A stretch of DNA of 64,000 bases from the human T2T-CHM13v2.0 reference genome, Homo sapiens. A model generated the notes under the pieces. It did not search any database and was not told the DNA's origin. It was given only the letters and a program-made list of their open reading frames with translations. The stretch's first letter is position 1. Each line of letters begins with the position of its first letter. A program made the position numbers and the translations under genes. Location of the stretch: the NCBI RefSeq assembly GCF_009914755.1, contig NC_060938.1; one strand, 5' to 3'. Shown piece by piece: positions 3,463 through 55,800 of this stretch.

Positions 3463-5725
3463 ATAGTCACAAAACTGAACTAGCCTGAGCGGGGTGAGGG
3501 CCTAAAGCAAACACAGCCTCAGCACACGGTCATGCTGGGGGGATTTGAATCTTGGTGTAGAGTGGCAGAGATGGGGAGTTTCCACTTTATTTAAAGGGAA
3601 CGTGAGTTCAAGTGTGAAAATCTTGACCTAAGGGAACACAGCTCGGCTTCTGTGCTCTGTTCAGCATAAACTTTTACTTGGGGGCTTGCTGGCCAGGCTG
3701 ATCTCAGATCTCTGGCCCAGGGATCCCTGACCCAGCCTGCCAGGAATGTGGGCTGTGGGGATGAGGCCATCTCGACTTGGCACAAAGGGCTCCTAGAAGT
3801 CATTCAAACCCCGTTTCTGCCGTGCATTGCCTTCCCCTGGATTTGGGACCTAGGTACGGCATAGACTTCACTATGCAAATGAGTGATGATTTCCGCCGAG
3901 TGCCCAACCCCCTTCCCCAGAGGTCTAAGCTGTAAAGCAGAGGGTGGCCCAGGAGGTGCCCCAGAAGGGTTGTAGGCTAAGCTGCTTCCTTCCTACCTTC
4001 TGGTCAAACGCATACCCTCCCATGGTTCTTGTGCCTTCAGGCTCCCAATTCACAGAATACACAAGGACTTGGGATGAAGCCGGAGTGACCGTGGGCTGCC
4101 CTGCGTCTCCCAGGTTTCTGGAGCTGTGTGGCTAGGGGCTCCTTGGAGCCAAAATAGTTTCTCATTGGGGTGTCTGACCCATAGGCCTAGGACCCCCATT
4201 TCTCCTGGCCCAATCACTCACCAGGGAGGACATGGCACACGCAGAGTCAGCATGGCTGCCAGGTTCCAGGCCCTTGTTACATCTTTGCCTTGTTCATTTG
4301 GGGTTGCTTATTTCAAGCCTTTCCCTCCAGGAAGTACTACCTTATGTTCTAAACAAGCCCCATGATGCTACATGTATAATTTGAGATGCTATGATTGGGA
4401 TGTGGGAGATGGAGCTAGCGCCTGCCTTCTTACCCCTTCCAGGTCCACATTTCTGTGGCCCTGGGATGGGCAGGAGGGAGCCTTCCCATTCCAGGTGGAC
4501 GTGCTCTTCCCCTTTGGTCAGGATGGCAGGCCTGCGGAAACCCCTGCCAGAGAAGCGGTTACCGAAACGGGAGTTGGAGAGGTCTCACCAGGGAGCGCTG
4601 GAGACCTTAGCCCGTTCACCTTCTCCCCTCATCTTCCTCCCTCTACCTCCTGCCCCTACACTCACCCTAGCCTCCTGCCCAGCCTGGTGGGAGAGGTCAG
4701 CTTATATAAGGTCCCCTGGCCACTTCCTGACCTCCTCAGGGGGGATCTTCAGCCTAGGTCCACTCAGATTTCTCCAAATTAGGGCCCCGGTATGGGCTGT
4801 GGAAACCAGCCCTAAGTCTGGGCCTGAGTCATGCCTGCTGTTCAGGGCTTACGGGAGGGCCCTTTGTGTAACTCCAAAGCAGGGGACCGGGATTGCACAC
4901 TCAAGCCTTTCAGGAACAGCTGAGGCTGGGCAACCAGACAGTTTTGCTTGGATCTCTGGGGTGGCCACGTGGCCATACATTCAATGCTCTGAGATGCCTG
5001 TGCCCTAAGCTAGGCAGGAAGTGACTTACAGCTGAAAACAGGATTTGAATGACTTCTGCTCCGGGGAGGCCCCTCAGTATAAACAGTGAGAATTTCTGGG
5101 AAATGTACATAAGGCCAGACTCTCGGGAGGGGATATGGGCCCAGATTCCTGATGCTCCCACCGAAGTGAGAGGTGCCAGCTCTTCCTGGGCATCCCAAAC
5201 CTCCACGGGCTCTCTCTTGTGGTTAAATGACAGCGTCTTACTTCTCATTTCATCTTCCCAGGGAGAGCGTTCACTCACTCTCAGGGCCTGGGCTGAGCAA
5301 GCTAGCCATCTAACATCTAAGCAGAGGCATGCAGAGTGCAGCCTGAACACAGTAGGTGTGCAGCTCAGCTCCCTTGTTGGCTCTGAGCTCAGTGAGGCAG
5401 GGAGCTTGACCCATCACTTGTCATTTTATCCCTAGCCATTGGCATGTAAAATAATGCCAGCCCTAGGCACCCAGGAAGTACTTCCTGAATGGAATGAATG
5501 AATGGATAAGTAAGACAATCTGGAATTGTCTTTTAAAGTTGCCAGAACTCAGGCTAAAGGTGCAAATGCTCTGCTGGTGTATTTTGAAGCAGCCTCTTCT
5601 GAGTGTGCCTGGCCTGGCCTCCCTGCCTATGTTCCCTGTGCTCCCTACTCCAGAGTTCCACCTCCCCAGCCCTGGACCTTGACCCTCAACATCCCTATTT
5701 AGTTGGGTAACGTGTGAGGCTTTTA

Positions 5726-17922: not shown

Positions 17923-18638
17923 AGGGCACTAGGAGCACGGTTTCCTGGATCCCACCAACATACAAAGCAGCCACTCACTGACCCCCAGGACCAGGATGGC
18001 AAAGGATGAAGAGGACCGGAACTGACCAGCCAGCTGTCCCTCTTACCTAAAGACTTAAACCAATGCCCTAGTGAGGGGGCATTGGGCATTAAGCCCTGAC
18101 CTTTGCTATGCTCATACTTTGACTCTATGAGTACTTTCCTATAAGTCTTTGCTTGTGTTCACCTGCTAGCAAACTGGAGTGTTTCCCTCCCCAAGGGGGT
18201 GTCAGTCTTTGTCGACTGACTCTGTCATCACCCTTATGATGTCCTGAATGGAAGGATCCCTTTGGGAAATTCTCAGGAGGGGGACCTGGGCCAAGGGCTT
18301 GGCCAGCATCCTGCTGGCAACTCCAAGGCCCTGGGTGGGCTTCTGGAATGAGCATGCTACTGAATCACCAAAGGCACGCCCCACCTCTCTGAAGATCTTC
18401 CTATCCTTTTCTGGGGGAATGGGGTCGATGAGAGCAACCTCCTAGGGTTGTTGTGAGAATTAAATGAGATAAAAGAGGCCTCAGGCAGGATCTGGCATAG
18501 AGGAGGTGATCAGCAAATGTTTGTTGAAAAGGTTTGACAGGTCAGTCCCTTCCCACCCCTCTTGCTTGTCTTACTTGTCTTATTTATTCTCCAACAGCAC
18601 TCCAGGCAGCCCTTGTCCACGGGCTCTCCTTGCATCAG
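17923..18638 (+). ncRNA. MEG3: MEG3 exon 3 (conserved core, contains H11 and H27 motifs)
   Basis: ttgcag|AGGGCACT...GCATCAG|gtaggg. Hairpin caatgccc-tagtgagg-gggcattg at 18061-18084; CTTGC/CTTGT/CTTAC/CTTAT repeats at 18561-18584. Confidence 0.95.
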
Positions 18639-28100: not shown

Positions 28101-31099
28101 AAGGGTTAAAGGGCAGTGGACAATGCGGAAGCCAGCATTGTGAGCTGCAGTGGAAAAGCCCTGGGTCGCTGGGAGTGGCTTCTTTTTAGGAGACTGGAAT
28201 TAATGAGTTGTGAAGTGTCCCAAGGACTGGTTCCCCCTCCCTGCTGTTTCTCTGAGCCCTGTCCCCTCTTCCAAAGGAGGAATAAGGAGGTCTAGCTTCG
28301 TCTCCCATCCCCGATTTGAGCAGATGGAAGAGTCTAGAAAAGAGGTGTACCTTTTGAAACGAGGCCTCAGATGTGGGGTTCCTGGTCTGGAAAGGGGAAG
28401 GATGAATCTGGGGTAGGAGAGGGTCTCGTATGGAGCCCCATTCAGACAGGGCAGTCCCACACCTGGGCTGCCCACAGGTTCTTGGGGGAGTCTAAGGAAA
28501 GGGGAGCCACAGAACAGGCTTGCCTCCTTGGCATGGATTGGGTCAGTGTTTCAGAGCCAGGAAAGGTGGGAGTGTGGGGGGCCCTCGGGGCTGATGAGGG
28601 CGTGCAGACCCTCCCCTCCCACCTCCTGTCCCAGGAGCCCTGCAGACACTGCAGCAGGAGGGCACTCTGCCAGAAGAGGGGTTCCAGCTCCAGCCGGATC
28701 CAGCAGACATGGAGAGACCCCTTATCTTTGCCAAGACGAGCTCTGCGGTGCCTGAGAGGCCCGTAGGTCTGGAATTCTAGGGCCTTCTGGGTTTGAGTCA
28801 GGTCCTGAGGCCAGGGCCTGGGCCCTGATCCTCACCATGGAAAACTGGTCACTTTACTCAGGATAAACTGTGATGAGGACTTGGGACATATCTCTGTCTG
28901 TCCTCTCAGCTCGCGTCACCCCTGAGCCCTTGGCGATCGTGGGCGGCCCGTGTACAGAGCAGGTGCTGGGTCACTGGGGCCGCCGTGGGCCTCCCAACAT
29001 GAGGGACTGTGTGTGAGAGAGGAGTTCATTAAGGGAGAGGATGGTGGTGAAGGGTGTAGCCATGACTTTCTTAACTGCTCTCCAATTTCTTTGAGCTTAA
29101 AAATAAATCCAGATGGAGAGTTCTTAAGTCCCCTATCCTGGGAGAAAGGAAGGCTGCCCACCACCTTCGGCTTGCCTCGACTCTGAGCAGTGAATAGGGT
29201 CTTTGGCAGGGGCTTAAGGAGGAGACTCTTAGCCTGGGAGCTCCCAGGGCTGTTTCAGATGGAAACAAAGGCTCAGGCCGAGAGGAATGTGGGGGAGCCC
29301 CCCGTGGGGAACAGCCACCTGGGGATAATTGGGAGGGCTGAGCGCAGATGAGTTTTCCCAGGTTCTGTGAATGCGCCCTTTCAATGGAAGGTGCCTTTTT
29401 TTCCAGATGAAAAGAAGAAAACGTCAATTACCTTCCCCTGAAACGGAGTGTGTGTGTGTTCCCTCCCAGGGGTTGTGTGGGGCCCCTTGCCCTTGTGTGT
29501 GTGTCGGGAGCTCCAAGGCTGCACAATGACGCACTTAACCAGCCACTGGGTTCGCGCGACCCTGGGATGCTCACGCTCTTAGATTCTAGGGCTTGATTTT
29601 GAAAGTTTCTTAGCAAAGGGGAATCAGAGTGATTGAGCCTGTAAACAAAAATTTGATCAACCTGGGCCTGATGCCTGAAATATAGCCAAAGAGACAGAAT
29701 GGGGCTGCGGGGAGAGAGGTCCAGGATGGAAAGTTGGGGAAGGAGGACAGTCGGGGGCCAAAGGCTGACCGCATGTCTGCGCCGGCCTCCGCGCTCACAG
29801 CTGGGCTGCTCCTTCTGCCACCCCAGCCCTTTCTCTGGGCCTTCCTGGCAGTGGACATAGAGTGATTCCCTACTCAGGAAGTTGGCGGTAGGGGGCTCAG
29901 AAATCCACAGGGCTGTTGTTTCACAGTTAGCCAGGAGAGGAGGGGGTCATGGTGGCCCGCAGGGATGGTGGGCAGCTGCGAGAGAGGGGACGCTTCAGGT
30001 TAGAGCGAAGCTGTTTGCACCACCACTGCCCCAGACTGCCGTAAGGGTAGGGCCACTCCAGAGGCACCAGGGACAAAGTCCCTGCCGTGACAGGAGGGGG
30101 GCACAGGTCTCAGTCTTGGCTGGTCACTGACTTTGCTGCTGCTGGCTTCTGAGCCTCAGAGAGGTCAGCAGTCTTCCAGAGACCTGGTTAGAGCCTGTGC
30201 TCAGCCCTGACTATGGGTGTGACCTTGGCCCCTGTCTCCAGCCCCTTAGGCCTCAGTTTTCCCGTCTACGAAATGGGCGAGTGCAGGCCCATGGTCGTCC
30301 GAGTGGCTCGGGGTTTCTTCAGGCCTCCCTGGAGGTCATCTGTCGTTTGTTTGCTGGGTCTTTGGAGTTGTTGGGACTTTGGGGGTCACTGGTCCGCTGC
30401 CCCCTCTGCTTTAGAGGTGGGGAAACCAGCGATCCCAGAGGCCCGGAGCCTTGCCCGAGGTTGCACGGTGAGCCGGCAGCAGGCCCTGGAGGTGAAGCCC
30501 CTGCCAGTTGCCAGCTCCTGTGTGACCTGTGTGGTCGGGGGGGGTCACAGTCACCGGTCATTAGTGTGGGTCAGAGCTCTTGCCCAAAGAAGGTTCCAAG
30601 GGGCTGCCCCATGAGCTGGGATGCAGGGATCGTGTTTTATGGGGCATTATTCCAAACAGGCAGGCTGCTGGTCTGGTCTGGAACACCTTTTTGGTCTGTA
30701 GAGTGACTCTTGTTTAATGAGACTGGACTTGTGGCTTCAGAACCAGGAGATGTTCGTTCCCCCAACCCCCGTGGCTCACCTTGTGCCTTTTGGGTCCTGA
30801 GACCCTCGCCAGCGCCTCTGTTGGCACGGTGGCCCAGTCGGCTGAGAACTTCCTGAAAAAGCCAACAGGATGACAACTTCTGGAAAAGTGATCATCACCC
30901 GCCTGCACTGGCTGCCCATCTTAGACTCAGCTTTGCCAACATCCCCAGCTATCTCTGTGTGCTGCAGTGTGTAGTAATGAACAGCTCACAAAACCTCCGG
31001 CTGGGCCTGCACCTGGTTATTACCGTGGTGGGCTGCAGCTTTTGTTTTGTGACCTTGGTTGCTACAATACCTGCGAGCTGAAATGAGGAATCGAAAAAT

Positions 31100-32040
31100 T
31101 GCCAGCTTCAATTAGACGGGCAGACTGCTTTCCCAAGGCTGCCTCCGCCACTCCATCCATTAACGGTAAACAGGCACCAAATAGGCCCTAATTCTCTCTA
31201 ATTGCCCACTCCTGAAGCAAAGAGGTGAAATTCCGGGAAGAGGCGTATGTAAACATCCTCTGTAACCTGACCAAGTAAAATTAGAGGGCTGATGGGGGCC
31301 TGCGAGAGAGAGGGGACATGATTTCAAAAGATGTCCCAATTACCTCTCCTATTTTCATAAATGGGTCTGTAATGTCCAGGGCCCCGGCCTCACAAAGGTA
31401 CAGGAAATTAGCTCTGCAAAGAGCTTGCATTTGTCAGGGGAAGTTGTAAGGGGGTGGTGTTTACTCAACAGGTAGGAAGTACGAGATCTGAGGCAAGACT
31501 GATTATTTGTGTAACGACGGGCTCTATTTCTTGAGATCAACATTTTAATAAAAGTCATCCTTTTAGGTCCTTTTGTGTTTGAAACAGCCATAAGTTGTTT
31601 ATACCAAAGACATGCCAGATCAGTTAGGTGCTGTTTGCCTCCAGAAAAGAGGAACTTTTAAAATCCTAAGATGCAGAGCTAGAGTTTTCTAATCCCATTA
31701 AGCTGTGGAAGATGTTTTTGGAGTGTTCACCAATGCTTTCTGCGTGGGTCATGAGCTCACTGCACGCACTTATGAGGTCTTCCATCAAATGCTTGTGACA
31801 ATTACTCCTCTGGACTCTATAAGGAGGCCTCGTGTTTTTCTTTGGTTCCAGACAGTGACTCATCTCTGCAGCTTTTCTGACATTTGTTAAGATTCTAGCC
31901 CAGCACTGCGTTATTAACACATCACAGCAAGCCCAGAGCTGGCACACGCAGCTTTTAAACCAAGGCACGAATTTGCTGGGGCTTCTCTGTAGCAGAGCAG
32001 CCTGCGGTCTGCACACAAGAGTTAATTAAGGACGGTCAGG
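31100..32040. promoter_or_regulatory. Candidate intronic enhancer (forkhead, homeobox and STAT motif cluster)
   Basis: GTAAACA at 31166 and 31249, TGTTTAC at 31458, TTCCGGGAA at 31231, several TAAT cores. About 16 kb downstream of the TSS, where I recall an islet enhancer being reported. Confidence 0.55.
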
Positions 32041-32731
32041 GACTCTGAGGTTTCATGGGGTCCCTGGAGCAGAAGCAGGAAAAAACCCAGATGCTCCTTC
32101 CTGCTTCTGATTTCTCCGCTCCTATTAAAAACACAAAAAAGAACAAAACAAAAACAGCCAAACAAAGCACCCGCCTCTGATTCCTGCGGGAAATGGCAGT
32201 GCCTTTGGTCGCGCTGTGTGTTCTTGGCCTGAGTCTCGTTGCCACCTTAGGACGTGGCGATGGTGAGAGGCCACCCCAGCCACGCACAGTCTCGGAGGGA
32301 GGGTGGGAAACGGTCTCGAGTGGTGGTCAGTAGATAATGGGTGGTCTGGCAGCCTTTAGGTAACCGAAGTCGGCCCCTCAGTCACCCATGCACTGATCAT
32401 TGCTTCACTAACACTTATTTTAAGACTTGTTGTTTCTTGGTTATCAAATTAACCAGTTATGGCAGAACAGGGTTTATGAAGGGCAAGGCCAGGGAAGGAG
32501 ATTTTAGGAAGATTTGGAGGCAAGAAGTGTCCCCAGTGCCCTGGCCGGGTCTTGGACATCCTGGCTGGAGACATGACTAGGAATAGAGAGGCAGAGGCAG
32601 CAGGGGTGGCCCAGATGGCAGGGGTGGGTTGGAGAGATCCCTGAGAGGCCTGAGGACAGGCGGCAGTCTTGGGAGCCCCTGAAGACCTGCAGTGGGGCAG
32701 GCAGCTGGAGTCAGGTGTCTCCCGGGACCTG

Positions 32732-33027
32732 TTTTTTTTTTTTTTTTTTTTTTTTGAGACAGAGTCTTGTTCTGTTGTCCAGGCTGGAGGGTAGTGGCGC
32801 AATCTTGGCTCACTGTAATCTCTGCCTCCCACGTTCAAGCGATTCTCCTGTCTCAGCCTCCCGAGTAGCTGAGACCATAGGCACATACCACCACGCTGAG
32901 CTAGTTTTTAGTAGAGACGGGGTTTCATCATGTTGGTCAGGCTGGTCTCGAACTCCTGACCTCAGGCGATCCACCTGCCTCAGCCTCCCAAAGCGCTGGG
33001 ATGACAGGCATGAGCCACCCCCCTGGG
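32732..33027 (-). mobile_element. Alu (AluS-like)
   Basis: Poly-T plus antisense Alu body. Confidence 0.93.
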
Positions 33028-33354
33028 GCTGGTACCTGTGGTCTGTGGCTTCTGCCTGCCCTGGTGCCCCCACATCTCTCTCATGGCCTTTCTGTTTCCT
33101 GGGTGGCTTTGTGGGGGTGTCCCATGGTCTCCCCCTGGCTTCCTGTCTCCACCTGTGCCTAATCCAGGAAACGGTCCCCAGAGATGGTGTTTTCAAACAG
33201 ACCTTGGCCCTGTCCTCCTGGCCCAGCCCCTGGCTGCCCTATCACCTAGCTTGCTGCGTTGGTGGGACCTCAGCTGTCACAGGCTACCTTTCTATGACGC
33301 CTCCTCACCTTAAGTAGACTCTGAACAGATTTTAAAAGCCATTCATTCAACACA

Positions 33355-33620
33355 TTTTTTAAATGAATAAACTTTTTTTCTGTGTAGTTTTCAGTTTACA
33401 GAAACATTGGTGGGAAAGTACAGAGAATTCCCAGATCCCGTCCCCACCATCTCCCCTGTCATTCACACGTTGCCTCCGTGTGGTGTGGTCTGTTTGTTCC
33501 GATCGATGGAACGACTCTGATACATGATTAACTAGAGGCCTTGGTTCACATCATTAGGGCTCACTCTTTGTGGCGCACATCCTGTGGGTCTTGACAAATG
33601 TGTCATGATACGTGTCTGAC
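33355..33620 (-). mobile_element. Old L1 (L1MC-like) 3' fragment
   Basis: tttacagaaacattggtgggaaagtacagagaattccca...ggttcacatcattagggctcactcttt...ggtcttgacaaatgt resembles an L1MC 3' UTR; family assignment tentative. Confidence 0.55.
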
Positions 33621-34355
33621 ATTGCTGAAGTCACCTTTTCTTAAAGCTTAACATTTTGGGAGTATTCTGAACTATGTTTGGCCCAGCCTGCTGCCCGATT
33701 TTTATAAAAAAGAAAAAACAAAACAAAACAAAAAAACAAGTTAAAACGTAAGGCAGATCTTGACACTGAAGACTCGATGTGCCTGGCCATGGTGCTTCCC
33801 GGGGCCTACTGCACTGTGAACAAAATTGCCACAGTGGAGTTGTCTGTCCAGGCACACAACGTGTGTGCCATGGTTTTGGGAAACGCTGCCCATTAATAGC
33901 CCTGCAGCCCTCTGTGGGCTGCCCTCCCGGCCACACCCCGCTTCCCTGGTCTCCTCCAGGGCCAGCCATCCTGCTCGCCGACCTGGGCACCTTGCTTCTG
34001 CCAGAGCACAGGTTCATGCCCTGTCTTCAGGGCCTGGGCCACCCCCGTTTCTCATCTATGCAGGGTCCTAAGCCTTTGGGTCCCACAGAGCACGACTTCG
34101 CTCCGTGAACAGCACCAACCCAAGTCTGTTCCATGTCTCCACACCTGCCCCTTCCGCTCCATAGGCAGCTGGTGGGTGAGTGGAGTCAGGAGAGAAATGC
34201 GTGGCTTCTCCAATTCCACACTTGCTGGAGGTTGGGGAGTCTCTGCTCCAGGCCACCCCTGCCCGCCCCCCAGAGCTGTTGTCCTCATCTGCCCTCCTCC
34301 TCCTCGCCGGCCTGAGTGAGGTTCTACTCTGTGACCTAGTGCCTTCTTGTTACAG

Positions 34356-34431
34356 CGGAAGCCATCACCTGGATGCCTACGTGGGAAGGGACCTCGAATG
34401 TGGGACCCCAGCCCCTCTCCAGCTCGAAATC
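34356..34431 (+). ncRNA. MEG3: MEG3 penultimate core exon
   Basis: ttacag|CGGAAGCC...CGAAATC|gtaagt. Confidence 0.92.
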
Positions 34432-37400
34432 GTAAGTGGCTGGAGTGTAAAGAACACACATGTGGCCTTGCTGCTGAGGGTGGGGCCAGCTGCCCGGAGC
34501 ACACCGCCAGGCGGACCTCGTGGAGGGGCTGGCGGGCACTGGCCGGGGGTCTGTGTACCGGGAGGTGGGTGCCCATCGAGTCAAGCCAAGTGCAGACCTG
34601 GGGGCTCCTGTTTTCTAAGACAGGAGCCCCCTGCCTCCTTGTGTTGTCTCTGTGGCAAAAGAATTCTATAGGCGGGCTTCAAATGTCGGACCCCAAAAGA
34701 ATTTCTTCTTTTTCACTCTTCTAAATGAATGGCTCTTTCATTATTGAGTCTCCCTTTGGCTCTTGTGCCGCAGGGCAGACTAGGATGGAAGTGCCCTGTG
34801 AGCTGGGGGGCCCTTCAAAGGGCCAAGGAGAAAACGCAGGCCGAGGGACCAGCCTTCCAAATGGGCTTCAAGCTCCAATGACCTCCGCTCGCCCCCTCGA
34901 AATGTCTGGAAAACATAATGGGCAGATTTTCTGTCTTCAAAGTTTCCGGCTAAACCTCTTCAAGTTCTTTATTGTTTGGGACTGAGACACTCAGCCATGT
35001 TAATGGGTAGTTTCTTTTGTATTTGCCTTGAAAGGCCAAAATATTTTTATATTGCCACAGACAAAGCCACCTATTTAAAAATGAACTCCATGTCCGTCGT
35101 TTCCCACCAGGAGACTATGTACCATGTGTGTGTCTCTATGTATTCTGGGGTCTTGAAACAGGTTTCTCATGGGGATGGTCATTCACCACGGTCCAGAGGG
35201 GCAGAACAGGCGGCGCTTGCCTTGCCCAGGGGGCCTGGGGAACGTGGGCCCTCATCTCAGATCTGCCCCCAGTATGTTTAGGACGCGAGCCCCAGAAGGA
35301 TCTGGGAGTAAACTTAACATTCACTGTGTCTCTGCTCTGCATCCGCCATTTGTGTGTGTTTCTGGACTGTGGGCTGTGTGTACCTTGGTTGGTGACTCAG
35401 TGAGAAGAAGCAGGAATGCCAAAGATACTATGAATGTTCTGAGTTTTGTTGCTGTTGTTGTTGAGAGGTTGTTTCACTGGTATCTATTGCATTGTATAAT
35501 AAATGACCAGATGAATGAATGAGTGAAGCAAGAGAGAATGAATAAACAAGTAAATAGGTAAAGAAGTAAGCAAGCCAGGATGAGAGTGTGTGTACACAAG
35601 ACCATGGTTCATCCGCTTTGATGGCTAGGCAATCAATATATAAATAGAAAAAACCCAGTGAATCACTAAGTAATAGGGCAACACACAAAGCGATATCAGG
35701 TGATTATGGACTAAGGGGTATGTGTAACTCAAATATATGCCTCTGACATTTGACAATGAAAAAGAACCTAAATGAAAGAAAGAATGGATGTATGAGTAGT
35801 GAAGTGCAGAATGAGACATAGATTTTGAGGCCCGTCAAAATGAAAAGATGCAAGTTAGGGAACAAGTGATCAAAAGGGAGAAGGGAAAGGTTTTTTTTAA
35901 AAAACCAAAACAACAAAGAAAGGTTAAAAAAAAAAACAGACTAGAGGATGAGTAATGAGTAACTCTGTAAGGAGGACCATGTCAGACTATTGTAAGCTAA
36001 GCATTAGGACTGATACAAATAATATATGCTCCTGGCATAGAAAAATAAACCACAGAGAACGAGTTCAAAGAATAGCAAAGAAAGAAAGAGGACCCAGTGG
36101 GCGAAAGATGAGAGTGTACTTTTACCAAAAGTTATCTAAGCCTGAGCACTTGAAGTCTGCACATAAATAAATAAATGACAAAAGAAAGAAAAAAAGGCCA
36201 AAAAGTCTACATTGCGTGTGTGGATGGATGAATGAGCAGTGGGAGTGCAGCGCCAGGTGACAAGATGTTGTGAGGGGTTTTGAGTCATCCAGTCCTGGGC
36301 ACTGAGGTCTGTTAGATGAAAGGATATGAGAAAGGTAATATTGGTAAATAAAGAAATAGGAAACAATGTAACAAATGTTAAGTACAGAAATACATTAATG
36401 GGTGGTAAATAAAGATGTAAAAGAAGGCAATGCGATCGATGGTGGCAAAAGATCATCACAGATTAAGGGCTATGGCTGGTCCACTTCTAGAAAACCACAG
36501 GCTGTCCATTAAATAATGAACATCTAAGTGAACAAGTCAGTGAGTATCTAAATAGACAAGGATGAGGTGAATGAGAAGACATGGCCCCATGGGTCCTCCT
36601 GATGAGGGTGTTGGGGTCCCCCCTGGGCACCCCAGCTGCATGAAAATGAAGGACAGGAGGTATGGAAAGCTATGACAGAAGAGAGAAAGGAACGGTAAAA
36701 AGAAATAACAACCAAATGGATAAATGGGTAGATCCACGAGAAGAGTTAGGCTAGGACTTGTCATAAGGGCACCTGACTCCACTAATAGAGGAATAAATGC
36801 CTAATAAAAAGAGAGCAAGCAGGAAGGAAGGATGCTATGAATGCAGGAAGGAAGTAATGAGTGAGACGTGGAACCGCACGGCCAAGGATGGACGTTTGCG
36901 GGTGGCTTTTTGATGCGTACAGCCAAGCCACTCCATGGCAATGAGCTCCGAAGACAAAGTGCAAGAGAGAATGAGTGAGAGAGTGAGAGAGAGAGAAACA
37001 ATAAAAAATGGGAAGAAATGTAAAAAGGAAGAAAGGAAGAGAGGTAATATATTAAGGAATAAATACATGCATGCAGATTTAAGACAGAGCCATGCTAGAA
37101 CAGGAATGAAAGGCTGTGTGAACCAAGCAGACCGCTTAATTGGCACCAGTGCTGCTGGTATGGTCAATCACCTACTCAACTAAGGAACGGCTCAAAGCAT
37201 ACACATGGGAGGGAGGAGTGGGGCCACAGAGAGAGGGCCCATTAGTTGCAGATTACGATGTATCCAGTTAGGTGCACCTGCCTTCGAGAAGTGTAAAAAT
37301 AAGTATTTACATAGAAAGAAAGACTGAATGGATGCACGGTGAATGCATGAATGATTGAACGACAGAAAAGATTTGCATTGACCGATGAGGAGGGCATTGT

Positions 37401-38206
37401 AGACAGGGATGAGGGTCATTGATCCTGGGTGCAGATCTCCAAAAGAATGACAGAAAGAAAGAGGGAGTGGTGGAAAGAAACAATAGGATGGGAAAAAATG
37501 AAAATAGGAAAAAAGGAAGTGAAAGAGATAATAAATAATTAGATCAAATAAGTTGATGAAAGGGGACTGGTTTAGCACAAGCCATCCACATTAATTCAAA
37601 CCTGTGGCTCTGAAGTTTGTTTTTTAAATGACCACAAGTGTAAGACTGAATGAAAGAATAAATGCGTGCATTCCATAGGATGCAAGAAAAGGAGTGAGGA
37701 ATGGGAAAATTGGAAGAACGAGAGGGGGAGAGATGTAAGAAAAGAAAGGAAAAGTGAAGTAGGCATATGAAAGAAAAGGCACTTCTTGGACAAGCACTGA
37801 AATATAATGAGACAGTTTTACCCATTAAATATAATAAACAGTAAACGTTGAGGTTCATCAATAAAAGCACAGATACCTGAATAGAGGAGTGACCTGAATA
37901 GAATTCGTTCAGCCGAACGAATGAGAATGGATGATTTTCACTATCCTGTGCACTCAAGGCCCAAAAGAGAAAGCAAGAGAGGAGAGAATATGGAAACGTA
38001 TGACAGGATGTATATAAGCAATACAAACATATTGAATGAATACATAAAGACATAAATATGTGGGAGAGTGGACCACGCAAGGACAAAAAGAGGAGAGAAG
38101 GCAGCAAGAATTATGACTAATTCAAAACTGGGTTCCTGAGATAGTTAAATAAATCCTGCACCAAATCCCCAGGGGGAGAAATTAACAAACAAAAGACAGC
38201 CCCACA

Positions 38207-38276
38207 CGGACCAGTGTGCAGAAGGCTCCGGGAACCGCAGATTATGGTTAATCCAATTCTGTGCACCTGAGGTCCA
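38207..38276 (+). pseudogene. Best-preserved SNORD112-like copy
   Basis: Terminal stem GGACC (38208-12) / GGTCC (38271-75), D' CAGA, C' ATGGTTA, box D CTGA (38267-70); box C decayed to GTGTGCA; 70 nt. Confidence 0.8.
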
Positions 38277-39202
38277 TAAATAAAAGAATAAGTATTGAAA
38301 TGAAAGAATGACAGAAAGAATGAATGGACACATGAACGACTGAATTAGAAATGGAAATGCCTGGCACAGCCAGGAAGGAGCTGCCCATGGGATTGTCATT
38401 CATCTCACTCTGGGCACCTGAGGTCCATAAGCGTGAAAAGAGGCAGGAAGAGAAGTGTCAGGGAGTCAAAGATAGAGCTAAGGAAAGGCAAAAATGAAAC
38501 TAAATGAAAGCGAAAGGGAAAATAAAGAAAAACCAATAAAAAAGAGAACGAATACGTGGGTGTATCTGTAAGAGTAGGATCTGTTAGGATTAGTCATAAG
38601 ACTGTCAGTAATCCTGAAGATGGATGAGATAATCCAGGCCCAGGTTCCCAGGGGGAGGGAAAATGGAGAAAATATAAAAAGATGTGAAAAAGGAAAAAGG
38701 AAAGGTAATAAACAAACAACCAAAGTGATAAATGGATAGTTAAGGGAGGTTGTCTGAACAGGGATTATAATTAGTTTACATACATACTCCTTAAACAGAT
38801 AAATACATTACACCTTTCAAAGAATAAATGAAAAATAGAGAGACATACCTGGCTCCAAAACAAGGCTGTATCTTCTGCCACTGTAATAAAATAGATGCAA
38901 TTGAGGTTCATAAATAAAAGAATAAATACTTAAACGTGAAAGGTGACTAAATGCGGGGAAGAAAGATTGCAAATAAATACATGGGCCAAAGATGTTTGGT
39001 TTGCCCATGGAGTTTTAATTAAAAAAATTAATAAGGAAAACAAATACCCAAAATAAGGAAGACTGACAAATGAGTGAGTAGATGAGAGAGTGAATGGTGC
39101 TTGACGTAGGAGCAGTAGTGCTTTAGGGACCAGCATGAAGGTGGTGACCGGGAGCCCTGATTCATGGGATTCTGTCCACCTGACTTTATAAGAACCAAGA
39201 AT

Positions 39203-39513
<311 letters not shown>

Positions 39514-39631
39514 GAAGGAGAAAGAACCAGAGAAACATAAGGAAGAGTGAGAGGAAGAAAGAAAGATGCAATTTGGGAAGAAATGAAAAAGAAATGAATA
39601 AAGAATAAAATAATGTAACGGTCAATAAATA

Positions 39632-39698
39632 GGACTTGTGAATGGAGGCCTTTAGGCCAAAGGCTATGATTAATTTCAAGCTATGTTACTGAAGTCCA
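39632..39698 (+). pseudogene. SNORD112-like copy with intact stem, C' and D boxes
   Basis: GGACT (39632-36) / AGTCC (39693-97) stem, C' ATGATTA (39666-72), D CTGA (39689-92), C-like GTGAATG. Confidence 0.7.
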
Positions 39699-40205
39699 TA
39701 AACAAAGGACTCAGATCTAAATGGATGAACGAATGACTGGAAGAAAGGGTGGTAGGAAGGTAGGAAGAAAGGAAGGAGGGAAAAAGGGAAGAGAGGAAGG
39801 AACCTTCTTTCCAGTCCTGTGTTCTAGACAGTGGAATGAAGTGGTCCCCAGGGAGGGTGGCTGTAGGCATGTCATGTGCTTGTCACATGCACTTGCCCTG
39901 GCAGGGAGGAGCTGGCTCAGGAAGACCCTGGTCTTGGGGTGCTGTTGCCCTATCTTGGCTGTGTGGGCCATTTCACTGCATCTGTCTCTTCCTCAGTTTC
40001 CCCATCTGTAAACCTGGAGTGGCACCAGCTGCCTACTAGAGTTGATCTTATGTGTCTCTGTTGATGGTACCCCATCTATGGCCTGGATAGGCAGGAAGGG
40101 CTTGGACCCTGAGCCCCGCAGAAGGTTGCATGAACGAGTGGTGTGAAGCCTGTTGGGTAGCTTGGCCACTCCCGCGGCATGGGTCACCTGCACAGGAGGT
40201 TTTGC

Positions 40206-51489: not shown

Positions 51490-52890
51490 GTATCAGCCTT
51501 TGATGAAGCTCAGGTGTCCAGAGCAAGCCACCCACTGATGTTCCAGAGCCAAGACCCCAGCTCCAGCCTCTGTTGAACCTTGGGCATTCAGAATGAGCCA
51601 CCCAACTTTTGACGTCCCAGAGCTAAGACTCAGTTCCAGCCTCCAATGAAACCCAGATGTTCAGAAAGAGGGACCTCCTTGATGTTCTAGAGCCAGGACT
51701 CCAGATCTAGCATCAGGTGATGCTCAGAGGTCTAGAAAGAGGAACCTGCTTAATGTTCTAGAGCCAAGACTCCAGATCCAGCATCTGATGCTCAGATATT
51801 CAGAAACAGGGACCTCCTTGATATTCTAGAGCCGGGACTCCAGATCCAGTGTCTGATGCTCAGATATCCAGAAAGAGGGACCTCCTTGATTTTCTAGAGC
51901 CAGGACTCCAGATCCAGCATCCGATGATGCTGAGATGTCCAGAAAGAGAGACCTTGATGTTCTAGAGCCAGGATTCCAGATCCAGTGTCTGAAGAAGCTC
52001 AGAGGTCCAGAAAGAGGGACCTCCTTGATGTTCTAGAGCCAGGACTCCAGTTCCAGCCTCCAGTGAAGCTCAGATGTCCAGAAAGAGGGACTACCTTGAT
52101 GTTTTAGAGCCAGGACTCCAGCTCCAGCCTCCGATAAAGCTCGGATGTTCAGAATGAAGGACGTCCTTGATGTTCTAGAGCCAAGACCCAGCTGTAGCAC
52201 TTAACAAAGCTCAAGTGTCCAGAAAGAAGTGCCTCTTTGATGTTCCAAAGCCAAGATAACACCTCTATCATTTGATAAAGATCAAGTGTACAGGAAGAGG
52301 GACCTCCTTGATGTCCCTCTTCAGCCAGGACTTCAGCTCTAGCTTTCGAAGAAGCGCAGATGTCCAGAAAGAGGGACCTCTTTGATGTTCTAGGGCTGGG
52401 ACCCAGTTCCAACATCTGACAAAGCCCAGATTTCCAGAAAGAGGGGTCTCCTTGATGTTCCAGAGCTGAGGGACCTCCATGATGTTCCAAAGCTAGGACT
52501 TTAGCTTTAGTTTTTGATGAAGCTCAGATGTGCAGAAAGAGGGACTTCCTTGATGTTCTAGGGCTGGGACTCAGCTCCAACCTCTGACAAAGCTCAGATG
52601 TCCAAAAAGAAGAGTTTCCTTGATGTTCTCGAACCCGGACTCTAGCCCTAGCCTCTAATGAAGCTCAGATGTCCAGAAAGAAGGACTTTCTTGAAATTCT
52701 AGAGCCAGAACTCCAGCTCCAGCCTCTGATGAAGCTCAGATATTCAGAAAGGGGGACTTCCTTTATGTTCCAGAGCCAAGACCCAGCTCCAACCTCTGAC
52801 AAAGCCCAGATGTCCAGAAAGAGGGACCCCCTTGATGTTCTAGAGCTGGAACCCAGATCTAGCCTCTGAGGAAACCCAGGTGTCCAGAAC
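51490..52890. repeat. Tandem repeat, ~71-bp unit, about 19-20 copies
   Basis: GATGTTC-like anchor at 51537, 51611, 51681, 51752, 51820, 51888, 51956, 52027, 52098, 52169, 52239, 52310, 52384, 52454, 52552, 52622, 52693, 52764 and 52834 (spacing mostly 68-74 bp). Confidence 0.95.
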
Positions 52891-55800
52891 TGGTGAGAAA
52901 ACCTCAAGCCTCTGGGCTTTCCTGGGCAGGGATAGGTGTGGCCAAGTTTGTCTTGAGACTGGAGAGGGCAGACAACACTCTTCTGTGCAATGGTGGCCTG
53001 CAACATTTCTCAATAGTGACACTGGCATAAAGAGGGGTCCCAGTTGCAGGAGAGATGTGGAGAGGGGACTCCTTGTGGGAGGAAGCATATTAGGAAGAAC
53101 ATGGCAGCAGAAATCATGGATTGCAGATGGGATGCCTTCGATGAAGCTTGCCTGAGGGCGTGTAACACCGCAGCAAAGCGCTGTTTTATGCCTTTTAGTT
53201 TTGCTGGACTCATGGCTGGCCACACATCAGCCTTGACCCACAGGGCTGCCAAATTGGCTGGACCCCGGAATGTAACCCAAGCTAGTTTCTGCGGCTTAGC
53301 TCCTCTCCCAGTGGAAGGTGCTAAACCCCCACTTGCCAGCCCAGTGTAAAGCTGCAACCTTGGGGCGAGTCAGATCTGGTTGCCTCCTTCTAGCAATGGA
53401 AGTTCATCTAGGTTAGGACTGGGGCAGGGCCAGGCTATCGCAATGGGTGTGAAGACAGCATGAACGGCAAAGGAGGCCCCCAAATACGTGGGGATATGGA
53501 TGCTAATGTCTCAGGTGAAGCTGCATTTGGGGCTGCAGCCCTGCCCTGAGCACCTTGACTCTACCACTTGCCCTCCAGGAGCTCCATTGACACCAGACTG
53601 TCCATTAAGCTGGAGAGAGATGGCAAGTAAAGAAATAGGCCAGGAATACTGACTTGCTCAGAAGCCATAAGAGCATTACAGGTAGATAGAATCCAAGGGA
53701 CGAAAAATGTAGACTTGGGGAGGAGAGAGCGCTGAATGCTATTTGGGATGTTTGAGCTCTGCAATATCCAGAATGGGAGAGAATCTTATCTCACCAGTTT
53801 TGCCATTCAGACACAGCTATGAGAATGGATCCTAGAGGACGACTTACTTCATTCAGCTGGAGTCTGGAGGAAAAGGGAGCAGCTAACAAGCATTCTTGAA
53901 AAACACGCCCTAATGATGCCACATCATTCTGGTGATATTTCCTAGAAACTCATTAGAACTTGGAACTGTGCAAACAAGAACTTCTTTGATGAGTAACTGG
54001 AACTCGAGAGTTGGGATTGCATGAAGGAGAAATGTCATCTTAGAGGACTGCCTCCCCGCTCCCCACCCTCATTTGGCCAAGTTATTTTAGGAAATTTCCA
54101 AGAACAAGCAATTAGAATCACTCATTGCTGATTTCCTAGAAGTCTCCACAACAGATTCTGAAGCCAAATGCAAAATGGGTGAGCCCAGCTTGTGAGGCCT
54201 GTGAAGAAAATGTGAATCCTACTCTATAAAGTCGTTGGCCTCAGGGAGCAAGACTCAGAAGTAGAGCTGCGTTAGGGAAAATGAGGACAGAACAGAAGGT
54301 CTAGATGGCCAGGCAGAGCCCCGTGGCAAAGACGAGCCTTGAGATGACTGTGGGCCCTCCCCTGCCGGCAGCCACAGCCTGTCTCAGACTCACTCCTCAG
54401 AGCCTGTTTCTCCATCACTCCCTTTGTCCTTCTGCCCATCAGAGGGATGTTCTCCAGGCTTCTGTGTTGCTATCTGGCTTCCGTGGGCCATGGCTTGAGC
54501 CAGGCTGTGGGCTCTGGGTGACTGTCCCTGAGGTATGGTGAGCTTCCTGAGTGGTGGCCACTTGGCAAAGTGAGTCCATCGCAGGGAAGTGGGCAATTAC
54601 CGGGGAGAGGAAAATCATGGCTTTCTTGCTTCCCAAGAGGGGCTGAACTGGGCTCCCAATTTCCCTGACACTCCCAGCTCAGCTTGTAGAGGAATCAGGG
54701 AATGGAGATGCCTTGGGCTGCAATTTTCTTTGAGATGACTGTAATTTTCCCCTCTTATCCTCACCGGTAGCTGCTGTGGGACAGAGGCAGGCGGGGCTCT
54801 GAAAGCTTTTCCTCAAGCTCCCCTTCAGTGCAGAGCTGTTTTCACGTGCCCACCAGCCAGCAGGAGGTTATGCTTCTGATTGTGACCCCCTACTTCTCAG
54901 AAGACACTTCGGACTCCGCCCCCGCCTCCATACCCAACAATGCCGTGCGGCATTTCGTGTGACTGGAATGGAAATCCAACCTGGCCCTCGAGGGCAGTGA
55001 AGCCAGTCCGAATCGCAGCAGATGATGCCCTCTGCAGAGGCCGGGCTCATGAACGGCCTGGGTGGGTGGAGGTGGGTTGACAGGATGGGGTGGGCAGGGC
55101 AGGGGAGTGCAGGACAGTGACCAGCTGGTCCAGAGAGTCCTGCCAAATTCAATCCAGATATTACTGGATTAATCAGCAAAGGAGGGGGAGCCCCGCCCCC
55201 ACCCCATGGAGACACTGATGAGCACCATGGGATAGCTGTGGCTTCCCAGGCAGCCCACGGACCTACAGCTGCCTATCAGCAGCCAGGGCCTTCTGGGCAG
55301 AGCGCCTCGGACCCCCAATTGCCCTGGGAGGGTGGGTTTTTGGTGTCAGCTTAGTTCAGCTCAGCTGGCTTTTATAGAGCATGCACTGGCTGGCTCACTG
55401 GGGTGATGCTGTCGTGGGGTAGATGAGCAGCAAGGCAGATTCGCAGGGTTGGGTGCAGGCAGCACTCCATGGGGGCATGCACGGGGCCCTTGCTTTTCAA
55501 GCAGAGGTGGACTGAAGGCTGGGCTTGCAAGGGGGTGGGCTGGGGTGGGCGCTGGTAGGGTGTTCTGAAACATTACCTATATACCTGCACTTTACAAAGC
55601 ACTTTATATGTTTGCCTGGTGTTGGCTGATGGTGGAAGGAGTGATTGGAGATGCCTGTCTGTGGCCTGGGTGCTGGTTAGTACCCCCATGTCAGAGGTAC
55701 TGACCCTGGGCTCAGAGCGGGTAGAGGCTCTCCCAGGGATTCTCGAGTGTCTACAGGGGGACTGGGATTCCCTTCCTGGGACCAGGAGGCGGGGCTCTTC

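What the first reader, a model, noticed from the sequence alone, without database searches (positions are those of the whole stretch)
38207..38276. Near-intact SNORD112 paralog with a broken box C
This 70-nt copy keeps the 5-bp terminal stem (GGACC/GGTCC), D' (CAGA), C' (ATGGTTA) and D (CTGA), but box C reads GTGTGCA instead of RTGATGA. Box C/D forms the K-turn that binds 15.5K/SNU13, so the human copy is probably unstable. It is the best candidate for recent loss of function or for activity in other mammals.
Basis: partly seen in the sequence, partly recalled or inferred. Interest (0 to 1): 0.7.

Follow-up and report, generated by a model that had tools for sequence, protein, structure and literature searches.

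The report
Dead snoRNA copy from LINE-1 tail
This broken SNORD112-like sequence in MEG3 is the best-kept unit of an unannotated decayed array and closely matches the shared tail of a dispersed repeat, likely an old LINE-1, that likely also seeded the neighbouring imprinted snoRNA cluster.

Summary
The element is real. Window 38207-38278 matches Rfam SNORD112 at 36.1 bits (cut-off 58).

It is the best of at least 10 same-strand decayed units in a purine-rich 4.3-kb stretch of MEG3 that has no acceptor-like splice sites. It is closer to a dispersed repeat tail (54/70, ungapped) than to SNORD112 (50/75). Those dispersed copies share upstream sequence with LINE-1 ORF2 and 3'UTR similarity.

The same upstream sequence precedes SNORD112, the head of the MEG3 array, and dozens of unannotated units among SNORD113/114. 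The imprinted cluster therefore likely arose by tandem amplification of a LINE-1 3' end carrying a C/D motif. I did not find this in the library searched, but repeat databases, which I could not check, may record it.

The human copy is predicted not to form a snoRNP. Its unusually preserved 3' half (35/36) is unexplained and needs mammalian alignments.

The parts
38207..38276 (+). 70-nt SNORD112-type C/D unit, best-preserved unit of the MEG3 array
   Evidence: Rfam RF01169 36.1 bits; 37.8 bits with a model built only from 26 dispersed copies; 54/70 ungapped to their consensus
38208..38212 (+). 5' arm of terminal stem (GGACC)
   Evidence: sequence; predicted paired at 0.92-1.0 in the isolated 70-mer
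38214..38220 (+). broken box C (GTGTGCA)
   Evidence: alignment
38214..38223 (+). rewritten segment that can pair 10/10 with 38257-38266 (the consensus pairs 6/10 in this register)
   Evidence: predicted pairing is lost when 50-nt flanks are added
38230..38233 (+). homologous D' position, degenerate (GGGA)
38244..38250 (+). C' position, one change (ATGGTTA)
38267..38270 (+). intact box D (CTGA)
38271..38275 (+). 3' arm of terminal stem (GGTCC)
38279..38284 (+). AATAAA in the A-rich tail right after the unit, as after the dispersed copies
35434..39705 (+). purine-rich decayed array of at least 10 units in MEG3 intron 9 / long alternative last exon
   Evidence: 10 hits of >=6 bits vs 0.035 per shuffle; the ten best window hits all lie here on +; purine skew; 0 acceptor-like sites and 26 AATAAA in 4180 nt
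35434..35517 (+). LINE-1-like 3'UTR remnant at the head of the array
   Evidence: upstream-only profile 8.4 bits vs maximum 1.1 in 500 shuffles of that 300-nt stretch; E 0.15 in the 388-kb scan
35577..35639 (+). degenerate unit
   Evidence: 8.2 bits
35703..35750 (+). degenerate unit
   Evidence: 9.2 bits
36099..36163 (+). degenerate unit
   Evidence: 11.5 bits
36259..36314 (+). degenerate unit
   Evidence: 12.6 bits
37251..37281 (+). degenerate unit (3' part)
   Evidence: 8.7 bits
37590..37623 (+). degenerate unit (3' part)
   Evidence: 8.9 bits
38103..38149 (+). degenerate unit (3' part)
   Evidence: 20.8 bits
38390..38429 (+). degenerate unit (3' part, box D and stem arm intact)
   Evidence: 21.4 bits
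39658..39705 (+). degenerate unit (3' part)
   Evidence: 15.8 bits

Best explanation
The 70-nt element is the best-preserved unit of a decayed tandem array in MEG3, likely made by amplifying the 3' end of an old LINE-1 that ended in a C/D snoRNA-like tail, and it is predicted not to form a snoRNP in humans because boxes C, D' and C' are damaged. Steps: (1, shown) dispersed SNORD112-like copies share several hundred nt of upstream sequence with LINE-1 ORF2 similarity about 280 nt before the tail. (2, shown) That upstream sequence also precedes SNORD112, many unannotated units among SNORD113/114, and the head of the MEG3 array, always on the sense strand. (3, inferred) A LINE-1/snoRNA junction in the maternal MEG3-MEG8 transcript was tandemly amplified. 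(4, inferred) In MEG8 the unit kept its 3'UTR flank, acceptor-like sites occur in that zone, and some units became SNORD112/113/114. In MEG3 only the A-rich linker plus tail was repeated, with no acceptor-like sites, and the units decayed. (5, inferred) The human RNA is transcribed with MEG3 but not protected by 15.5K/SNU13, so no stable 70-nt RNA accumulates.
For: Identity 54/70 ungapped to the dispersed-tail consensus, vs 50/75 to SNORD112 and at most 62% to 45 other Rfam members. Array: 10 hits of >=6 bits vs 0.035 in 200 shuffles; no RTGATGA on + in 35400-39800; 0 acceptor-like sites vs 18 and 13 in equal flanks. Shared upstream flank: leave-one-out >=15 bits in 17 of 35 dispersed copies vs 0 of 35 downstream or reversed (19 of the 35 were picked by eye as seed). 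A 14-locus upstream consensus matches LINE-1 ORF2 aa 94-263 of the query, E 1e-4 (query identified against PDB). The flank also occurs in a multi-copy repeat end lacking the tail. Upstream-only profile: 35 hits at E<0.05 in the 130 kb beyond the window, all on +, 26 of 35 followed by a tail-like unit within 40 nt of the projected start (random 4.7, maximum 14); 34 bits upstream of SNORD112. Before box D the MEG3 units carry the dispersed-type base (G 10, A 1) rather than the MEG8 type (G 8, A 26), p 1e-4.
Against: The 3' half matches 35/36, more than any of 26 dispersed copies (maximum 34) or 116 unannotated cluster units (maximum 29). The binomial chance is 4e-5 to 2e-3 per unit, which neutral decay explains poorly. 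Flank homology for annotated SNORD113/114 is weak: 3 of 46 Rfam members reach 3 bits with bias correction; 19 of 43 vs 47 of 430 shuffles reach 10 bits without it; consensus vs consensus is reached by 3 of 2000 shuffles. No ORF2 remnant was found upstream of the MEG3 array or of SNORD112. Single-locus ORF2 hits are weak support: 5 sense vs 4 antisense loci at E<=1e-3 among 34. The 38207 unit itself has no 3'UTR flank hit. No repeat library, orthologue or expression data could be used.
Confidence: 0.7

Rival explanations
1. The unit was a working C/D snoRNA for a long time, with a constrained C'-D arm and a fast-evolving 5' half, and lost box C in the human lineage, perhaps in one template-switch event; it may be active in other mammals.
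For: 3' half 35/36 vs 5' half 19/34, Fisher p 3e-5. Stem and box D are intact. It is among only 12 genome-wide matches to a 33-nt pattern designed on it at <=3 mismatches. In SNORD115 the C-D' segment diverges about three times faster than C'-D (PMC12429941, passages). The box C segment is 8/10 identical to the reverse complement of the 3' arm, vs 5/10 to the consensus.
Against: D' and C' are also damaged. The array has no acceptor-like site, and the next exon of the selected transcript is 11.3 kb away. It is the best of about 160 units in the locus, so a selection effect applies. PMC4063771 (passages) found no significant constraint on the antisense elements of 14qI/II snoRNAs.
Confidence: 0.17
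2. The unit was co-opted as a hairpin or protein-binding element in MEG3 pre-RNA or its long last exon; the new 10-bp helix and the kept 3' arm would be under selection for structure, not for snoRNP assembly.
For: 10/10 helix inside the terminal stem, pair probability 0.77-0.93 in the 70-mer. A helix of >=10 bp arose in 1368 of 200000 matched mutation simulations and occurs in 2 of 163 locus units and 0 of 35 dispersed copies. MFE -23.9 was reached by 15 of 2000 simulated mutants. z -2.3 vs shuffles.
Against: Pair probability falls to about 0.36 with 10-nt flanks and about 0.01 with 50-nt flanks. The feature was noticed after the fact. The stem is too short for a pri-miRNA (recalled), and no Rfam miRNA matches.
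Confidence: 0.08
3. Donor-locus version of the origin: a founder snoRNA already sat in this domain, a LINE-1 landed just upstream, and 3' transduction gave the LINE-1 family its tail. The MEG3 array head would be the donor, so the dispersed copies descend from this locus rather than the reverse.
For: The MEG3 units are of the dispersed-tail type before box D. The array begins with an L1-like 3'UTR remnant. A complete C/D anatomy is more easily captured than evolved inside an L1 (inference).
Against: No ORF2 remnant upstream of the array head or of SNORD112, although a source element should be full length. The tree is star-like and cannot order events. This is a sub-case of the best explanation: the cluster units still descend from an L1/snoRNA junction.
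Confidence: 0.3
4. The element is a solitary, ordinary repeat fragment or chance match unrelated to the neighbouring cluster.
For: It scores below the Rfam cut-off, and such tails are dispersed genome-wide.
Against: At least 10 same-strand units in 4.3 kb; 151 of 157 tail-profile hits in the next 130 kb are on +.
Confidence: 0.05

Closest known systems
SNORD112 / 14q(0) (Rfam RF01169), MEG8 intron, 49 kb downstream
   Same: Homologous over the whole model; same strand; same stem and box D; 50/75 identity
   Different: Boxes C, D' and C' are damaged; it lacks SNORD112's extra ~4 nt before box D; it sits in an array without acceptor-like sites; it is closer to the dispersed tail than to SNORD112
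SNORD113/SNORD114 tandem cluster (RF00181)
   Same: Tandem units of one ancestral type in the same maternal transcription unit; weak shared upstream flank
   Different: They form a separate branch (support 99/93); at most 62% identity; acceptor-like sites occur in their zone but not in the MEG3 array
3' end of an old LINE-1 (L1ME3-type; the subfamily name is recalled and comes from no call)
   Same: 54/70 ungapped to the tail consensus; A-rich tail follows; 3'UTR remnant at the array head
   Different: Tandemly repeated instead of dispersed; only linker plus tail is repeated; no ORF2 remnant found upstream
snoRNA retroposons (Weber 2006, PMC1687206, passages) and LINE-1/small RNA chimeras (bioRxiv 2025.02.02.635956, passages)
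   Same: A snoRNA sequence spread by LINE-1 machinery
   Different: Here the snoRNA-like sequence is the fixed 3' terminus of the LINE-1 itself, downstream of its 3'UTR, not a separately retroposed copy; '14q' and 'L1M' do not occur in Weber's text
Pseudogene units of imprinted snoRNA arrays (SNORD115/116; PMC4063771, passages)
   Same: Birth-and-death decay through C/D box mutations
   Different: A different locus; here a whole sub-array is dead

Membership tests
SNORD112 (RF01169) functional C/D snoRNA | Rfam score at or above 58 bits | tested here: not met
   36.1 bits
SNORD112 (RF01169) functional C/D snoRNA | Significant homology to the family | tested here: met
   E 1e-4, model positions 1-77; 50/75 to SNORD112
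SNORD112 (RF01169) functional C/D snoRNA | Box C RTGATGA | tested here: not met
   GTGTGCA; no RTGATGA on + in 35400-39800
SNORD112 (RF01169) functional C/D snoRNA | Box D CTGA and terminal stem | tested here: met
SNORD112 (RF01169) functional C/D snoRNA | D'/C' as in the family | tested here: not met
   D' position GGGA, C' ATGGTTA
SNORD112 (RF01169) functional C/D snoRNA | Own intron with a nearby 3' splice site | tested here: not met
   0 acceptor-like sites in 4180 nt by a simple pyrimidine-tract rule; next annotated exon 11.3 kb away (gene table)
SNORD112 (RF01169) functional C/D snoRNA | Stable ~70-nt RNA bound by core proteins | not testable with these tools
   no expression or CLIP data
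LINE-1 3' end with snoRNA-like tail | Tail identity to dispersed copies | tested here: met
   54/70 ungapped; 37.8 bits
LINE-1 3' end with snoRNA-like tail | L1 3'UTR directly upstream | tested here: inconclusive
   absent at this unit; present at the array head, 8.4 bits vs maximum 1.1 in 500 shuffles
LINE-1 3' end with snoRNA-like tail | ORF2 remnant upstream of the array | tested here: not met
   no tblastn hit at E<1 in window 30001-40000
LINE-1 3' end with snoRNA-like tail | A-rich tail after the unit | tested here: met
   AATAAA at 38279-84; 6.2 per kb in the array vs 0.5 in flanks
LINE-1 3' end with snoRNA-like tail | Match to a named Dfam/Repbase subfamily | not testable with these tools
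   no repeat library held; 'L1ME3-type' is recalled
LINE-1 3' end with snoRNA-like tail | Target-site duplication | not tested
   not attempted; unlikely to survive at this age (inference)
microRNA precursor | Long (about 30 bp or more) stable stem in context | tested here: not met
   5+10 bp helices only, lost with flanks; no Rfam miRNA match

The most novel reading that the evidence does not exclude
The whole imprinted SNORD112/113/114 cluster, long described as lying in a LINE-poor region, was born by tandem amplification of one LINE-1 3' end carrying a C/D snoRNA tail. About 150 such units survive in MEG8. MEG3 holds a second, failed sister array, possibly the donor of the tail, whose best unit stayed under selection long after its neighbours decayed.
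Probability: 0.5. Interest if true: 0.75.

Novelty: new variant of a known kind. Interest (0 to 1): 0.55.

Why it matters
The element alone is probably a dead pseudogene. Its value is what it points to. The origin of the eutherian-specific DLK1-DIO3 orphan snoRNAs is open: PMC2408620 (passages) dates them to the eutherian stem and calls the region particularly devoid of LINEs. The data here suggest the cluster is itself made of amplified LINE-1 3' ends. That gives a reconstructable ancestor, a neutral outgroup (the dispersed copies) for measuring selection on each snoRNA, and an explanation for the many stray SNORD112-like annotations. It also makes MEG3 (no splice layout, dead) versus MEG8 (live) a natural test of what a repeat unit needs to become a snoRNA gene. 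A LINE-1 family with a fixed C/D tail also runs against the view that C/D snoRNAs are seldom captured by LINE-1 (PMC8178906, passage).

Tried and rejected
- All-against-all BLAST of flanks was swamped by Alu and was replaced by colinear filtering and profiles.
- Longer upstream flanks of the dispersed copies could not be read, so the ORF2 link rests on 1.5-kb flanks.
- Single-locus ORF2 hits were not counted as strong support: 5 sense vs 4 antisense loci at E<=1e-3 of 34.
- The upstream profile against annotated SNORD113/114 one by one mostly failed (3 of 46 at 3 bits).
- The 94-row tree has 86 columns and few resolved forks; it was used only for the SNORD113/114 split. Its degenerate units were chosen by the tail profile, so their grouping is biased.
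- pre-miRNA was rejected. An alternative longer snoRNA using an upstream box C was rejected, since there is no RTGATGA in the array.
- TRF does not see the array.
- A genome-wide copy count with my own model was not possible.
- Target complementarity to rRNA or snRNA was not tested.
- Cavaille 2002 and Paulsen 2001 are not held and may describe degenerate copies. No supplements were read.
- Earlier scan notes were not available.

Full report
Observation. The sequence at 38207-38276 is as described: GGACC at 38208-12, GTGTGCA at 38214-20, ATGGTTA at 38244-50, CTGA at 38267-70 and GGTCC at 38271-75. Rfam matches it to SNORD112 (RF01169) over the whole model at 36.1 bits, E 1e-4 on 5.6 kb, under the cut-off of 58. 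It is the only SNORD112 match in the window. The column that reads ATGA in SNORD112 and the dispersed relatives, and CTGA in SNORD113-type genes, reads GGGA here (38230-33). CAGA lies 2 nt from C' and aligns to AAGA in SNORD112. Boxes C, D' and C' are therefore all damaged; only box D and the stem are intact.

It is one unit of an array. Window 35500-39800 is strongly purine-skewed and holds a loose repeat family that includes this element. I built a sequence model from 26 dispersed genomic copies only, none from the chr14 cluster. Its ten best hits in the 64-kb window (E<=0.11) all lie in 35577-39705 on the + strand, with this unit first at 37.8 bits. An HMM of the same copies gives 10 hits of >=6 bits there, against a mean of 0.035 (maximum 1) in 200 dinucleotide shuffles. 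No RTGATGA occurs on + in 35400-39800. A simple acceptor rule finds 0 sites in the 4180-nt array, against 18 and 13 in equal flanks; AATAAA occurs 26 times against 2 and 2. By the gene table the array lies in intron 9 of the selected MEG3 transcript, 11.3 kb from the next exon, and inside the long last exon of other transcripts.

Closest relative. The genome search with RF01169 returned true SNORD112 (49 kb downstream of this unit) and many dispersed copies; 62 candidates were scored, so counts are lower bounds. I kept 35 distinct dispersed loci. Of the 30 loci fetched I kept 26, dropping SNORD112 and three chr14-cluster hits. Of the 12 I kept 9, dropping this locus and two duplicates. The MEG3 unit matches the consensus of the 26 at 54/70 without gaps, SNORD112 at 50/75, and the other 45 Rfam members of the cluster at 62% at best. 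SNORD112 itself matches the consensus at 60/75 with an extra ~4 nt before box D. At a column before box D the MEG3 units read G 10, A 1 of 11, like the dispersed copies (G 15, A 9 of 26) and unlike unannotated MEG8 units (G 8, A 26 of 50), p 1e-4. The tree separates SNORD113/114 (99/93) from the rest and is otherwise star-like.

The dispersed copies are repeat 3' ends, likely LINE-1. They share upstream but not downstream sequence. An upstream-only profile (19 of 35 loci, picked by eye) scored >=15 bits in leave-one-out on 17 of 35 upstream flanks, and on 0 of 35 downstream or reversed flanks. I took an ORF2 C-terminal fragment from a young L1 in L054, identified against PDB. It matches a 14-locus upstream consensus at E 1e-4, which places the ORF2 end about 280 nt before the tail. 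Single loci gave 5 sense and 4 antisense hits at E<=1e-3 among 34, so they add little. The last part of the flank also matches (13 bits) a repeat end in L005 that continues without the tail. That stretch has 39 other genomic matches, some spanning the point of departure. This suggests the flank is native L1 sequence rather than cluster sequence captured by L1, but it rests on one example. The label L1ME3-type is recalled; no repeat library was available.

The cluster carries the same flank. The upstream-only profile scores 34 bits directly before SNORD112 (the well-aligned part is the last ~100 nt). It gives 35 hits at E<0.05 in the 130 kb after the window, all on +, and none in the reversed control at that level. 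26 of the 35 are followed by a tail-like unit within 40 nt of the projected start (random mean 4.7, maximum 14). The tail profile gives 157 hits there, 151 on +, with median spacing 320 nt; 46 Rfam C/D genes lie in the same stretch. For the annotated SNORD113/114 genes the flank signal is weak: 3 of 46 reach 3 bits with bias correction, 19 of 43 vs 47 of 430 shuffles reach 10 bits without it, and their flank consensus aligns to the L1 flank consensus better than all but 3 of 2000 shuffles. The MEG3 array has one flank remnant, at its head (35434-35517; 8.4 bits vs maximum 1.1 in 500 shuffles; E 0.15 in the large scan). No ORF2 remnant was found upstream of it or of SNORD112.

How it most likely works (0.7). 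It is a dead unit. Inferred history: a LINE-1/snoRNA junction in the maternal transcript was amplified in tandem. In MEG8 the unit kept its flank and some copies became processed snoRNAs. In MEG3 only the A-rich linker plus tail was repeated, without acceptor-like sites, and the units decayed. Without box C the K-turn cannot form and SNU13 cannot protect the ends (established knowledge, recalled). PMC10234308 (passages) links degenerate motifs to non-expression. Timing fits: the snoRNA clusters arose in the eutherian stem (PMC2408620, passages), and an L1ME4 locus is absent only from marsupials (bioRxiv 2025.02.02.635956, passages). Whether the junction formed here (donor locus, 0.3) or elsewhere cannot be told from these data.

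What does not fit. The 3' half matches 35/36 and the 5' half 19/34 (Fisher p 3e-5). None of 26 dispersed copies (maximum 34) or 116 unannotated cluster units (maximum 29) is as well kept. The binomial chance is 4e-5 to 2e-3 per unit, before allowing for the choice of the best of about 160 units. The rewritten box C segment can pair 10/10 with the kept 3' arm and is 8/10 identical to its reverse complement. Matched simulations give such a helix in 0.7% of cases, but the predicted pairing drops to about 0.01 with 50-nt flanks. These leave room for a long-lived snoRNA that lost box C later (0.17; SNORD115 shows the same 5'-fast, 3'-slow pattern, PMC12429941, passages) or for a co-opted hairpin (0.08).

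Literature. Ten full-text searches found no paper linking SNORD112-114 to a LINE-1 3' end or describing this MEG3 array. 'SNORD112'+'L1ME' and 'snoRNA'+'L1ME'+'Dlk1' gave 0 papers. I read term-matched passages only, of PMC2408620, PMC12429941, PMC1687206, PMC4914119, PMC10234308, PMC4147309, PMC8178906, PMC13736004, PMC4063771 and bioRxiv 2025.02.02.635956; no supplements. Cavaille 2002 and Paulsen 2001 were not held, and most subscription papers are not searched. I recall that RepeatMasker L1ME3-type 3'-end consensus sequences end in a similar tail, so repeat curators may already know part of this; I could not check.

Verdict. Observation partly confirmed; interpretation partly supported. The element works like nothing today (predicted). 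It is a homologue, but not a member, of functional SNORD112. Its interest lies in the array and the likely LINE-1 origin of the cluster: new variant of a known kind, interest 0.55.

Noticed in passing
window 51494-52902: Unannotated ~71-nt tandem repeat just downstream of MEG3 (TRF 12.1 + 6 copies at 75-78% match; 18 copies in one family). Its minus strand weakly resembles the box D end of the tail model (3-6.5 bits); probably chance.
   Followed up: partly
G000:C14 about 95,147,300-95,153,400 (L017-L018): A run of unannotated flank-plus-tail units at about 300-nt spacing between SNORD112 and SNORD113-1, up to 47 bits; none has both C and D intact.
   Followed up: partly
G000:C14 about 95,232,300-95,235,400 (L026): Another run of units beyond the last SNORD114. 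One (L026:3878-3952) passes the Rfam SNORD113 cut-off; one at about L026:5101 has intact C and D but a poor stem.
   Followed up: partly
L016 about 3657-3730 (G000:C14:95,133,657): A second flank-plus-tail unit 300 nt after SNORD112 (flank 26.8 bits, tail 18.2 bits).
   Followed up: no
window 39200-39529: An Alu inserted into the MEG3 array near its 3' end (SRP-like Rfam hits; masked in the gene table).
   Followed up: no
L021:8778-8852: One SNORD114-type gene has an Alu directly upstream, replacing its flank.
   Followed up: no
L005 and L054 upstream flanks: Young L1 insertions sit in the A-rich linker between the old flank and the tail; several other copies have Alus there.
   Followed up: no
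window 4929-5132 and 18239-18343: Rfam Mico1 (178 bits) and MEG3_2 (128 bits) conserved regions; Mico1 has no row in the gene table.
   Followed up: no
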